A DNA stretch of 64,000 bases, taken from the NCBI RefSeq assembly GCF_003018255.1, contig NZ_CP027440.1. One strand, 5' to 3'. Shown here in pieces: positions 30,001-33,000 of this stretch (its first letter is position 1; each line of letters opens with the position of its first letter). This DNA is from Escherichia coli. Lineage in GTDB: Bacteria > Pseudomonadota > Gammaproteobacteria > Enterobacterales > Enterobacteriaceae. Made by a program: the position numbers.

Positions 30001-33000
30001 GTTACGTTGCAATATTCCGTGGGCCGCCGACTTAACCCGGCTAACATCCGCGCGCTGATGACAGCAGGCACCCTCTGTTTCGTCATTGGGCTGGTCGGTT
30101 TTATTTTTTCCGGCAACAGCCTGCTATTGTGGGGTATGTCAGCTGCGGTATTTACTGTCGGTGAAATCATTTATGCGCCGGGCGAGTATATGTTGATTGA
30201 CCATATTGCGCCGCCAGGAATGAAAGCCAGCTATTTTTCCGCTCAGTCTTTAGGCTGGCTTGGTGCGGCGATTAACCCATTAGTGAGTGGCATAGTGCTT
30301 ACCAGTCTGCCGCCTTTCTCGCTGTTTATCATCTTAGCGTTGGTGATCATTGCTGCGTGGGTGCTGATGTTAAAAGGAATTCGTGCAAGACCGTGGGGGC
30401 AGCCCGCGCTTTGTTGATTTAAGTCGAACACAATAAAAATTTAATTCAGCCTTCGTTTAGGTTACCTCTGCTAATATCTTTCTCATTGAGATGAAAATTA
30501 AGGTAAGCGAGGAAACACACCACACCATAAACGGAGGCAAATAATGCTGGGTAATATGAATGTTTTTATGGCCGTACTGGGAATAATTTTATTTTCTGGT
30601 TTTCTGGCCGCGTATTTCAGCCACAAATGGGATGACTAATGAACGGAGATAATCCCTCACCTAACCGGCCCCTTGTTACAACTGTGTACAAGGGGCCTGA
30701 TTTTTATGACGGCGAAAAAAAACCGCCAGTAAACCGGCGGTGAATGCTTGCATGGATAGATTTGTGTTTTGCTTTTACGCTAACAGGCATTTTCCTGCAC
30801 TGATAACGGATCGTTGACACAGTAGCATCAGTTTTCTCAATGAATGTTAAACGGAGCTTAAACTCGGTTAATCACGTTTTGTTCGTCAATAAACATACAG
30901 CGATTTCTTCCGGTTTGCTTACCCTCATACATTGCCCGGTCCGCTCTTCCAATGACCACATCCAGAGGCTCTTCAGGAAATGCGCGACTCACACCTGCTG
31001 TCACGGTAATGTTGATATGCCCTTCAGAATGTGTGATGGCATGGTTATCGACTAACTGGCAAATTCTGACACCTGCACGACATGCTTCTTCATCATTAGC
31101 CGCTTTGACAATAATGATAAATTCTTCGCCACCGTAGCGATAAACCGTTTCGTAATCGCGCGTCCAACTGGCTAAGTAAGTTGCCAGGGTGCGTAATACT
31201 ACATCGCCGATTAAATGCCCGTAGGTATCATTAACCAATTTAAATCGGTCAATATCCAACAACATTAAATAAAGATTCAGAGGCTCAGCGTTGCGTAACT
31301 GATGATCAAAGGATTCATCAAGAACCCGACGACCCGGCAATCCCGTCAAAACATCCATATTGCTACGGATCGTCAGCAAATAAATTTTGTAATCGGTTAA
31401 TGCCGCAGTAAAAGAAAGCAACCCTTCCTGAAAGGCGTCGAAATGCGCGTCCTGCCAGTGATTTTCAACAATAGCCAGCATTAATTCCCGACCACAGTTA
31501 TGCATATGTTGATGGGCAGAATCCATTAGCCGAACGTAAGGTAATTCATCGTTATCGAGTGGTCCCAGATGATCAATCCACCGACCAAACTGGCACAGTT
31601 CATAAGAATGGTTATCCGTTATTTCTGGCTTACTGGCATCTCTCGCGACCACGCTGTGAAACATACTTACCAGCCACTGGTAGTGGGCATCGATAGCCTT
31701 ATTGAGATTTAACAAGATGGCATCAATTTCCGTTGTCTTCTTGATCATTGCCACTCCTTTTTCACAGTTCCTTGTGCGCGCTATTCTAACGAGAGAAAAG
31801 CAAAATTACGTCAATATTTTCATAGAAATCCGAAGTTATGAGTCATCTCTGAGATAACATTGTGATTTAAAACAAAATCAGCGGATAAAAAAGTGTTTAA
31901 TTCTGTAAATTACCTCTGCATTATCGTAAATAAAAGGATGACAAATAGCATAACCCAATACCCTAATGGCCCAGTAGTTTAGGCCATCAGGCTAATTTAT
32001 TTTTATTTCTGCAAATGAGTGACCCGAACGACGGCCGGCGCGCTTTTCTTATCCAGACTGCCGCTAATGTTGATCATCTGGTCCGGCTGAACTTCTCGTC
32101 CATCAAAGACTGCCGCAGGAATAACAACATTAATTTCACCACTCTTATCGCGAAAAACGTAACGGTCCTCTCCTTTGTGAGAAATCAAATTACCGCGTAG
32201 TGAAACCGAAGCGCCATCGTGCATGTTTTTTGCGAAATCAACGGTCATTTTTTTTGCATCATCGGTTCCGCGATAGCCATCTTCTATTGCATGAGGCGGC
32301 GGTGGCGCTGCATCCTGTTTTAATCCGCCCTGGTCATCTGCCAACGCATAAGGCATGACAAGAAAACTTGCTAATACAATGGCCTGAAATTTCATACTGA
32401 CTCCTTAATTGCGTTTGGTTTGACTTATTAAGTCTGGTTGCTATTTTTATAATTGACAAATAAGAATACTGCCAATTGTTATAAGGCATTTAAAATCAGG
32501 CAACTAGCTGTCAAATATTCAGAGAATTTTACTCACTAAAGTAAGAAGAAGATTAAAGAGTCTTAAACATATTTCAGAACAATCAGATTTATAAATTTGA
32601 AAATTATTATAACGGAAGGGTATACAAAAAAAGTAATTTTGCTGGCGACTGCGAAACGGCATTCGCATTAGCGGTGAAGTTTGCCCTCACCCAGCTGCTG
32701 CAATTACTGCTATAACGAGGCTGGTCTGGCGATAAATCCAGGCCAGCCATTGGTGGTGTTTATACGTTCAAGCCACGATGTTGCAGCATCGGCATAATCT
32801 GAGGTGCCTTACCGCGCCATTGTCGATACAGGCGTTCCAGATCTTCGCTGTTACCTCTGGAAAGAATCGCCTCGCGAAAACGCCGCCCATTTTCACGCGT
32901 TAATCCGCCCTGCTCAACAAACCACTGGTAACCATCATCGGCCAACATTTGCGTCCACAGATAAGCGTAATAACCTGCGGCATATCCGCCACCAAAAATA

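What the first reader, a model, noticed from the sequence alone, without database searches (positions are those of the whole stretch)
30544..30863. Compact PhoP locus: mgtS, a candidate mgrR, and a PhoP-box overlapping the dgcZ stop
The 31-aa MgtS ORF is intact with its own terminator. On the opposite strand a GTTTA direct repeat with the spacing of a PhoP box, then about 100 nt, then an intrinsic terminator, matches the expected MgrR sRNA unit. The box overlaps the last codons of dgcZ, so dgcZ read-through transcription and the sRNA promoter share sequence.
Basis: partly seen in the sequence, partly recalled or inferred. Interest (0 to 1): 0.4.

Follow-up and report, generated by a model that had tools for sequence, protein, structure and literature searches.

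The report
Known E. coli mgtS–mgrR magnesium locus

Summary
The window is E. coli chromosome. The K-12 reference annotates mgtS (30544-30639 +), mgrR (98 nt, 30812..30715, minus strand) and dgcZ (31748..30858, minus) at these positions. Rfam RF01407 (STnc560) matches full length at 280 bits. The GTTTA-N6-GTTTA repeat is real (30863..30848), and its first half-site contains the dgcZ stop codon.

Two corrections:
1. Its ATG overlaps the mgtS stop, it contains the mgtS terminator hairpin, and it overlaps the MgrR 3' end antisense.
2. In 66 promoters from about 15 enterobacterial genera, the conserved PhoP-type box is one half-site downstream: GTTTAACATTCATTGA (30852..30837), 12 nt from an extended -10. 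There it forms a second, perfect box register 23 nt from the -10. Both distances are published functional positions.

mgtS has a mirror-image conserved box, also 12 nt from its -10.

Novelty: already known. Interest: low.

The parts
30444..30459 (+). mgtS promoter PhoP-type box ATTCAGCCTTCGTTTA (weak upstream half-site, perfect downstream half-site)
   Evidence: The pattern (A/G)TT(C/A)A-N6-GTTTA is conserved in the alignment of 32 mgtS upstream regions. It lies 12 nt from the -10, which is the architecture-I distance of PMC3335776. It has 4 mismatches to the strict consensus, so the 3-mismatch scan did not report it.
30472..30477 (+). mgtS -10 hexamer TAATAT (predicted)
   Evidence: TA(A/C)TAT is conserved 12 nt downstream of the box in 32 loci. 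The transcription start was not mapped here.
30544..30639 (+). mgtS (yneM) coding sequence, 31 aa
   Evidence: K-12 b4599 maps here. NCBIfam NF033842 scores 80.6 bits against a cutoff of 35.
30639..30743 (+). mgtT coding sequence, 34 aa; its ATG overlaps the mgtS TAA (TAATG)
   Evidence: K-12 b4775 and the RefSeq annotation of a strain identical across the compared 501 bases map here. The protein was detected by ribosome profiling and tagging (10.1101/511675). The mgtS-mgtT operon is PhoQP-dependent (PMC11429745). The overlapping ATG is present in all 33 mgtS-linked loci, but the ORF length ranges from 7 to more than 47 codons.
30667..30706 (+). mgtS intrinsic terminator: hairpin at 30667-30697 plus U-rich tail, located inside mgtT
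   Evidence: RNA fold of 30640-30750. The same hairpin appears as a paired element in the Rfam STnc560 alignment.
30715..30812 (-). MgrR small RNA, 98 nt (+1 at 30812)
   Evidence: K-12 b4698 maps here with 97/98 identity; the one difference is at nt 4. Rfam RF01407 scores 280.2 bits. The fold gives a 5' stem-loop, a single-stranded middle and a terminator, z = -2.9.
30745..30776 (-). MgrR A-rich (ARN) Hfq-binding stretch and target-pairing region (nt 37-68; the pairing region is U55-A68, 30758..30745)
   Evidence: Positions are taken from PMC6239178 applied to the sequence. The 20-nt stretch 30764..30745 occurs exactly in 67 genome contigs of Enterobacteriaceae.
30715..30741 (-). MgrR intrinsic terminator (ACCGCCGG-UUUA-CUGGCGGU plus U8); it is the only predicted minus-strand terminator downstream of dgcZ
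   Evidence: Terminator scan and RNA fold.
30819..30827 (-). mgrR extended -10, TGcTACTGT
   Evidence: In 66 promoters the TG is present in 61-66, and T, A and T of the hexamer (positions 1, 2 and 6) in 66.
30837..30852 (-). Conserved PhoP-type box of mgrR, GTTTAACATTCATTGA (-40..-25), 12 nt upstream of the -10
   Evidence: GTTTA is present in 65 of 66 promoters and the TT of the second half-site in 65 of 66. The 12-nt distance is architecture I (PMC3335776).
30858..30863 (-). Third, promoter-distal hexamer GTTTAA, which is dgcZ codon Val296 (GTT) plus the TAA stop.
   Evidence: A perfect hexamer here is seen only in the window and in E. whittamii; this position is not conserved across genera. 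The 60-nt promoter is identical in 4968 of 5416 E. coli records.
30858..31748 (-). dgcZ (ydeH) coding sequence, 296 aa
   Evidence: K-12 b1535 maps here. NCBIfam NF007380 scores 521.6 bits against a cutoff of 256.

Best explanation
This is the known E. coli magnesium-stress locus. It holds two convergent PhoP-activated transcription units packed into about 420 bp between ydeE and dgcZ.

At low Mg2+, PhoQ phosphorylates PhoP, which then binds a direct-repeat box at each promoter.
- On the plus strand it drives mgtS-mgtT. mgtS encodes a 31-aa membrane protein that raises intracellular Mg2+. mgtT encodes a 34-aa protein of unknown role, and its ATG overlaps the mgtS stop.
- On the minus strand it drives mgrR. 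MgrR is a 98-nt Hfq-dependent sRNA that base-pairs with and represses eptB, ygdQ and pitA mRNAs.

The core mgrR promoter is GTTTA-N6-ATTGA, 12 nt upstream of an extended -10 (class II, architecture I), and it is conserved across Enterobacteriaceae. In Escherichia the last sense codon and stop of dgcZ (GTT-TAA) lie exactly 11 nt further upstream. This adds a third in-phase hexamer, so a perfect GTTTA-N6-GTTTA box also exists 23 nt from the -10, which is the other distance at which PhoP boxes work.

dgcZ has no predicted terminator of its own. Its transcripts must therefore cross the mgrR promoter and most likely end at the MgrR terminator.

Shown here: gene identities, coordinates, motif geometry and conservation. 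Taken from the literature: PhoP dependence and the functions of MgtS and MgrR. Inferred: which box register PhoP uses, and dgcZ read-through into mgrR.
For: - Organism: 5416 of 5426 complete E. coli genomes hold the region.
- Annotation: K-12 features map base-for-base onto the window.
- RNA family: Rfam RF01407 at 280 bits.
- Protein families: MgtS and DgcZ equivalogs score above their cutoffs.
- Literature: MgrR is 98 nt, PhoPQ- and Hfq-dependent, and targets eptB and ygdQ (PMC6239178); pitA is a target (PMC12721325); mgrR and yneM are directly PhoP-activated, shown with transcriptional fusions (PMC3536696); mgtS-mgtT is a PhoQP-dependent operon (PMC11429745).
- Promoter conservation: table over 66 promoters.
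- Functional box distances of 12 and 23 nt (PMC3335776).
- mgtS promoter conservation.
- Only one minus-strand terminator is predicted in 30300-31000.
Against: - No PhoP binding, transcription start or 3'-end data could be generated here.
- The paper that defined the mgrR promoter (Moon and Gottesman 2009) is not in the held library, so I could not check which repeat its authors called the PhoP box.
- The conserved register has 4 mismatches to the 12-position consensus. The Escherichia-only register has 2.
- Rho-dependent termination of dgcZ upstream of mgrR cannot be excluded.
Confidence: 0.95

Rival explanations
1. In E. coli the functional PhoP box of mgrR is the perfect repeat that overlaps the dgcZ stop (30863..30848). 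[quoted passage not shown] On this view the downstream ATTGA hexamer is irrelevant in this species.
For: - It is the best consensus match at this promoter: the core is 10 of 10.
- A box at 23 nt gave the same reporter output as one at 12 nt (PMC3335776).
- The 60-nt promoter is identical in 92% of E. coli records.
- MgrR is induced already at moderately low Mg2+ (PMC6239178), which would fit a high-affinity site.
Against: - Hexamer 1 is not conserved outside Escherichia, whereas hexamers 2 and 3 are near-invariant in 66 promoters.
- Hexamer 1 is fully explained by coding sequence (Val codon plus TAA).
- It is degraded to GTTTTA in one Escherichia lineage (L017) and displaced by an 11-nt insertion in E. 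albertii.
Confidence: 0.3
2. MgrR in E. coli is in substantial part a 3'UTR-derived product of dgcZ mRNA, made by read-through followed by processing, rather than only a primary transcript from its own promoter.
For: - Only 45 nt and no predicted terminator separate the dgcZ stop from MgrR +1.
- In other genera unrelated co-oriented genes also end 5-7 nt before the box, or inside it. A tight 3'-of-gene position is therefore recurrent.
Against: - The complete PhoP-type promoter with an extended -10 is conserved whatever the upstream gene is.
- A fusion carrying the mgrR promoter region up to +10 is PhoP-responsive (PMC3536696).
- dgcZ is the upstream neighbour in only 15 of the 66 promoters analysed.
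- In many genera (for example Kosakonia, Pluralibacter and Phytobacter) no co-oriented ORF ends within 250 nt.
Confidence: 0.1
3. The repeat and hairpins are chance features of the dgcZ 3' region, and no separate sRNA gene exists.
For: None beyond the general fact that loose PhoP-box matches are common.
Against: - The Rfam match.
- The K-12 ncRNA annotation.
- Multiple experimental papers on MgrR.
- Conservation in 67 contigs.
Confidence: 0.01

Closest known systems
E. coli K-12 mgrR (b4698) / Rfam RF01407 STnc560
   Same: Same position, strand and length. 97 of 98 bases are identical, and the terminator and pairing region are the same.
   Different: One base differs (nt 4, C here against U in K-12). 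The Rfam model (214 nt) extends past the sRNA, across the complement of the mgtS terminator, to the mgtS stop codon. It is therefore longer than the 98-nt RNA.
E. coli K-12 mgtS-mgtT operon (b4599, b4775)
   Same: mgtS is identical. mgtT has the same start, stop and length.
   Different: Two adjacent base changes (30681-30682) lie in the terminator loop and alter one MgtT residue. The window reads VTTVYK; K-12 differs at these two bases, and L007, a near-K-12 sequence from a contaminated assembly, reads VTVVYK.
Architecture I PhoP-activated promoters (mgtA, phoP, slyB; Zwir et al. 2012, PMC3335776)
   Same: A single direct-orientation box 12 nt upstream of the -10, with no usable -35. Both the mgrR conserved register and the mgtS promoter fit this.
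   Different: One half-site of each box is degenerate (ATTGA in mgrR, ATTCA in mgtS). E. coli mgrR also carries an extra in-phase hexamer upstream.
Architecture III PhoP-activated promoters (rstA, ompX)
   Different: Here this box shares its downstream half-site with the conserved architecture-I box, so the two registers are mutually exclusive for one PhoP dimer. No such overlapping arrangement is listed among the five architectures summarised in the passages of that paper I read.
Type I 3'UTR-embedded sRNAs with their own promoter inside or at the end of the upstream gene (for example DapZ and MicL; from my own knowledge)
   Same: The promoter elements touch the upstream stop codon, and the terminator is probably shared with the upstream mRNA.
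   Different: The association with the upstream gene is not conserved. mgrR keeps its promoter next to at least five different upstream neighbours.

Membership tests
MgrR sRNA (Rfam RF01407 STnc560) | Covariance-model score at or above the family gathering score | tested here: met
   280.2 bits against 55, covering model positions 1-214 of 214.
MgrR sRNA (Rfam RF01407 STnc560) | Same locus and strand as the experimentally defined E. coli gene: between mgtS and dgcZ, opposite to mgtS | tested here: met
   K-12 b4698 maps to 30812..30715 with 97/98 identity. Flanking genes are as listed in PMC8545128.
MgrR sRNA (Rfam RF01407 STnc560) | Rho-independent terminator with a U tail, and an A-rich (ARN) motif for Hfq binding | tested here: met
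   The terminator was found by scan and fold. The A-rich stretch at nt 37-52 matches the description in PMC6239178. Hfq binding itself was not testable.
MgrR sRNA (Rfam RF01407 STnc560) | PhoP-dependent transcription | not testable with these tools
   Only the sequence signature is shown: a conserved box 12 nt from the -10. PhoP dependence comes from the literature (PMC3536696).
MgrR sRNA (Rfam RF01407 STnc560) | Seed complementary to eptB and ygdQ mRNAs | not tested
   The targets are not in the window. The seed U55-A68 is identical to K-12.
MgtS small protein (NCBIfam NF033842) | Equivalog HMM score above the cutoff, full length | tested here: met
   80.6 bits against 35, residues 1-31 of 31.
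MgtT small protein (K-12 b4775) | 34-codon ORF whose ATG overlaps the mgtS stop, at the orthologous position | tested here: met
   No HMM family exists for it. The ~34-aa form is found only in Escherichia.
DgcZ diguanylate cyclase (NCBIfam NF007380) | Equivalog HMM score above the cutoff | tested here: met
   521.6 bits against 256.
   AGTTTAAGCTCCGTTTA has 2 mismatches, both at the T/G positions.
PhoP box (consensus (T/G)GTTTA-N5-(T/G)GTTTA; at most 2 mismatches in many E. coli promoters, PMC7667037) | Direct orientation at a functional distance (12 or 21-23 nt) from the -10 hexamer | tested here: met
Functional distances are from PMC3335776. This relies on the annotated +1 and the predicted -10.
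PhoP box (consensus (T/G)GTTTA-N5-(T/G)GTTTA; at most 2 mismatches in many E. coli promoters, PMC7667037) | Conservation of both half-sites in orthologous promoters | tested here: not met
Hexamer 1 (columns -39..-34 relative to the -10) shows no conserved base in 66 promoters. Hexamers 2 and 3 are conserved in 65 of 66.
3'UTR-embedded sRNA of dgcZ | Conserved linkage to the parental gene and a shared terminator | tested here: not met
   dgcZ is upstream in 15 of 66 promoters. A shared terminator is plausible, since no other terminator is predicted, but this is unproven.

The most novel reading that the evidence does not exclude
In the Escherichia lineage the dgcZ Val-stop codons (GTT-TAA) have been co-opted as a third in-phase PhoP half-site. 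The mgrR promoter would then carry two overlapping, mutually exclusive PhoP-box registers: a perfect one at 23 nt and an ancestral one at 12 nt. This could account for MgrR's induction at only moderately low Mg2+. It would also couple dgcZ transcription to MgrR output, through read-through across the occupied box and into a shared terminator. In parallel, translation of mgtT through the mgtS terminator could modulate how far the convergent mRNA runs antisense into the MgrR 3' end.
Probability: 0.2. Interest if true: 0.3.

Novelty: already known. Interest (0 to 1): 0.07.

Why it matters
As a discovery it matters little, because mgtS, mgtT, mgrR and dgcZ are annotated reference genes and MgrR has been studied since 2009. 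The check does show that the first-stage reader can recognise an sRNA unit from promoter and terminator grammar alone.

The small added value is comparative.
- The conserved PhoP site of mgrR is not the most eye-catching repeat.
- The overlap with dgcZ is a lineage-specific by-product of a Val-TAA gene end.
- The mgtS terminator sits inside a translated ORF.

Anyone designing dgcZ or mgtT deletions, C-terminal tags or promoter fusions in E. coli should know that these edits can alter the mgrR promoter or the MgrR 3' end.

Tried and rejected
1. Relaxed PhoP-box scans: 3 mismatches gave 171 hits against 149 expected, and 1 mismatch gave 3 against 1.15. They are not discriminating and were not used as evidence.
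2. A PhoP-like string inside the MgrR terminator (GGTTTACTGGCGGTTTT, 30735..30719) was rejected as coincidence. It arises from the GGCGG stem plus U tail and the Escherichia loop, and other genera have different loops.
3. RNAalifold on a MAFFT alignment of 61 MgrR sequences recovered only 3 terminator pairs, because the variable 5' stem-loop was misaligned. It was not used. The compensated 5' stems are visible by eye but were not quantified.
4. A 17-codon upstream ORF in the mgtS leader (30491-30544, with its TAA overlapping the mgtS ATG) has an ATG absent from E. albertii and Citrobacter. I treated it as chance.
5. The primary papers were not held in the library: Moon and Gottesman 2009, Wang 2017 and Yin 2019.
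6. Searches for 'ydeH + mgrR' and 'STnc560 + MgrR' returned nothing. The equivalence of STnc560 and MgrR therefore rests on the coordinate overlap of the Rfam match with K-12 b4698.
7. TTGAGA within hexamer 3 was considered as a -35 element and rejected, because the spacer to the -10 would be only 10 nt.
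Full report
**1. What is there**

The window is E. coli chromosome. A 501-base stretch around the finding occurs in 5416 of 5426 complete E. coli genomes, and many copies are 100% identical. Mapping the K-12 MG1655 annotation onto the window gives:

| Gene | Window coordinates | Strand | Note |
|---|---|---|---|
| ydeE | 29230-30417 | + | |
| mgtS (b4599) | 30544-30639 | + | 31 aa |
| mgtT (b4775) | 30639-30743 | + | 34 aa |
| mgrR (b4698) | 30812..30715 | - | 98-nt ncRNA |
| dgcZ (b1535) | 31748..30858 | - | 296 aa |

- Between 30230 and 31760 the window differs from K-12 at 21 positions. Three fall in the unit: 30681-30682 (in the mgtS terminator loop and mgtT) and 30809 (MgrR nt 4).
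- An independent Rfam scan places RF01407 (STnc560, an Hfq-binding RNA) full length on the minus strand at 30846..30633, with 280 bits against a gathering score of 55.
- MgtS and DgcZ pass their NCBIfam equivalog cutoffs. MgtT has no family model.

**2. Checking the observation**

- The 31-aa ORF is intact.
- A strong hairpin (30667-30697) followed by UGAUUUUUAU lies downstream of it.
- On the minus strand GTTTAAGCTCCGTTTA occupies 30863..30848. The exact GTTTA-N6-GTTTA core occurs three times in 64 kb against 0.11 expected.
- The dgcZ stop TAA (30860..30858) lies within the first half-site.
- MgrR ends at an 8-pair G+C-rich hairpin plus U8 (30741..30715).
- The RNA folds into a 5' stem-loop, an open A-rich and pairing region, and the terminator (z = -2.9). 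This agrees with the probing data summarised in PMC6239178.

**3.

The ATG of mgtT overlaps the mgtS stop (TAATG), and the 34-codon frame runs through the mgtS terminator hairpin. Its last 29 bases are antisense to the MgrR terminator.
- MgtT was found by ribosome profiling and detected by tagging, at lower levels than MgtS (10.1101/511675).
- mgtS-mgtT behaves as one PhoQP-dependent operon (PMC11429745).
- The 'own terminator' of mgtS is therefore at best a partial terminator. Transcripts that encode MgtT must read through it and overlap MgrR. This last step is my inference.
- In the 33 mgtS-linked loci from other species, the overlapping ATG is always present, but the frame is open for anywhere from 7 to more than 47 codons. 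It is 14 codons or fewer in 15 loci. The ~34-aa form occurs only in Escherichia.

**4. Which PhoP box?**

I used the 20-nt MgrR seed region as an exact pattern against one genome per species. This returned 67 contigs from Escherichia, Citrobacter, Salmonella, Enterobacter, Lelliottia, Leclercia, Kosakonia, Pluralibacter, Phytobacter, Yokenella, Silvania, Huaxiibacter and others.

Anchoring 66 promoters on the -10 hexamer shows a near-invariant architecture:
- GTTTA in 65 of 66;
- a 6-nt spacer;
- (A/G)TT(G/T)A, with TT in 65 of 66;
- exactly 12 nt;
- an extended -10, TGnTAnnnT (TG in 61-66 of 66);
- about 6-7 nt, then a +1 that usually begins GATCC.

In the window this conserved box is GTTTAACATTCATTGA at 30852..30837 (-40..-25).
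- It is a perfect GTTTAA only in the window and in E. whittamii.
- It reads GTTTTA in another Escherichia lineage (L017). There the dgcZ stop is lost and the ORF runs 8 codons further, to the TGA inside ATTGA.
- In E. albertii it is displaced by an 11-nt insertion.
- The hexamer is simply dgcZ's last codon GTT (Val) plus TAA.

Zwir et al. 2012 (PMC3335776) show that direct-orientation PhoP boxes activate from 12 nt (architecture I: mgtA, phoP) and from 21-23 nt (architecture III: rstA, ompX) upstream of the -10. Output was similar at 12 and 23 nt and poor at out-of-phase distances. The E. coli mgrR promoter therefore carries three in-phase hexamers that form two overlapping registers:
- the conserved register at 12 nt, with 4 mismatches to the 12-position consensus;
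- the Escherichia-specific perfect-core register at 23 nt, with 2 mismatches.

I consider the conserved register the core activating site and the dgcZ-stop hexamer an accessory or accidental addition. The sequence alone cannot decide this. The 60-nt promoter is identical in 4968 of 5416 E. coli records. Two sampled variants differ only at -6.

**5. The mgtS promoter**

No box with 3 or fewer mismatches lies upstream of mgtS. An alignment of 32 upstream regions nevertheless shows a conserved (A/G)TT(C/A)A-N6-GTTTA, then 12 nt, then TA(A/C)TAT.
- In the window these are ATTCAGCCTTCGTTTA (30444-30459) and TAATAT (30472-30477).
- This is the mirror image of mgrR: weak upstream half-site and strong downstream half-site.
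- Both convergent promoters thus have architecture-I geometry, consistent with the direct PhoP activation reported for mgrR and yneM (PMC3536696).

**6. Context and the read-through idea**

Only 45 nt separate the dgcZ stop from MgrR +1, and the scan finds no other minus-strand terminator in 30300-31000. dgcZ transcripts most likely cross the mgrR promoter and stop at the MgrR terminator. This is an inference, and Rho-dependent termination is not excluded.

The linkage is not ancestral:
- dgcZ is the upstream gene in only 15 of 66 promoters (Escherichia and some Citrobacter).
- In 21 promoters (Enterobacter, Lelliottia and relatives) an unrelated ~120-aa ORF ends 5 to 54 nt before the conserved box, most often 7 nt.
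- In Leclercia the upstream ORF's own GTT-TAA forms the conserved half-site.
- In Salmonella the upstream neighbour is ydeI. In C. amalonaticus it is dcp.
- mgtS lies convergent to mgrR in about half of the loci and is absent nearby in the Enterobacter group.

**7. Comparison with what is known, and verdict**

Everything essential is already in the reference annotation and the literature.
- MgrR is a PhoQ/PhoP-dependent, Hfq-dependent class II sRNA that represses eptB and ygdQ (PMC6239178, PMC4651636) and pitA (PMC12721325).
- MgtS is a 31-aa protein that increases intracellular Mg2+ (titles cited).
- MgtT is a recently annotated small protein with no phenotype so far (PMC11429745).

The finding is a correct re-identification of a known locus, so the novelty is 'already known' and the interest is low. 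What remains open is:
- the register question at the mgrR promoter;
- the extent of dgcZ-mgrR co-transcription;
- the consequences of mgtT translation through the mgtS terminator.

None of these could be resolved without experiments or the 2009 primary paper, which is not in the held library.

Noticed in passing
window 2514-2530 (minus strand), with a -10-like CATAAT 11-12 nt downstream: This is the only zero-mismatch PhoP-box consensus in the 64 kb window (TGTTTAGTCACGGTTTA). It has architecture-I geometry and lies about 270 nt upstream of a fimA-like major fimbrial subunit gene; the cluster continues with chaperone and usher genes, and hipA lies upstream of the box. This is probably the ydeQRST/F9 cluster. 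The 91-nt stretch is present in 4887 of 5426 E. coli genomes with no feature annotated under it. A search for 'F9 fimbriae' plus PhoP returned 5 papers, none about such a link judging by title and abstract; I did not open them. It is a candidate unreported PhoP-activated promoter.
   Followed up: partly
window 1508-1524 (+): A second PhoP-box match (TGTTTATTGAACGTTTA, 1 mismatch) lies between the fimbrial chaperone and major-subunit genes. Its orientation is opposite to those genes.
   Followed up: no
window 50350-50439 (+): An Rfam RF02221 sRNA-Xcc1 match at 65.4 bits against a gathering score of 53. Its context was not examined.
   Followed up: no
window 30500-30512 (+), in the mgtS 5' UTR: AAGGTAAGnGAGG is strongly conserved across the 32 aligned mgtS leaders, about 35 nt upstream of the mgtS ATG and separate from the true Shine-Dalgarno sequence. 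It may be a regulatory or sRNA-pairing element; its function is unknown.
   Followed up: no
window 30491-30544 (+): A 17-codon upstream ORF (MKIKVSEETHHTINGGK) has a TAA that overlaps the mgtS ATG (TAATG), mirroring the mgtS/mgtT junction. Its ATG is missing in E. albertii and Citrobacter and lies only about 7 nt from the predicted transcription start, so it is probably not translated.
   Followed up: partly
L017 (Escherichia coli SCPM-O-B-8794 contig), mgrR promoter: The dgcZ TAA is mutated to TTA, so DgcZ gains 8 residues (…RVLAPFNIH) and terminates at the TGA inside the conserved ATTGA half-site of the mgrR PhoP box.
   Followed up: partly
L014 (Enterobacteriaceae bacterium RIT691), 1438-1457 and 3032-3051: Two copies of the MgrR seed lie 1.6 kb apart. 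One has the conserved PhoP-type promoter. The other is next to mgtS and lacks that promoter. This may be an mgrR duplication.
   Followed up: no
L007 (MAG labelled Caldithrix) and L058 (assembly labelled Chryseobacterium): These contigs carry E. coli-like or enterobacterial mgrR-mgtS sequence. L007 is nearly identical to K-12. This points to contamination of those assemblies.
   Followed up: no
L005, L022, L033 and other loci of the Enterobacter group, immediately upstream of mgrR: A conserved ~120-aa ORF with a signal-peptide-like N-terminus (MKKIIVLSLLGVVVAVGAAAS…LMRYLQINTKAG) has no NCBIfam match. It ends 7 nt before the mgrR PhoP box in most of these genomes.
   Followed up: partly
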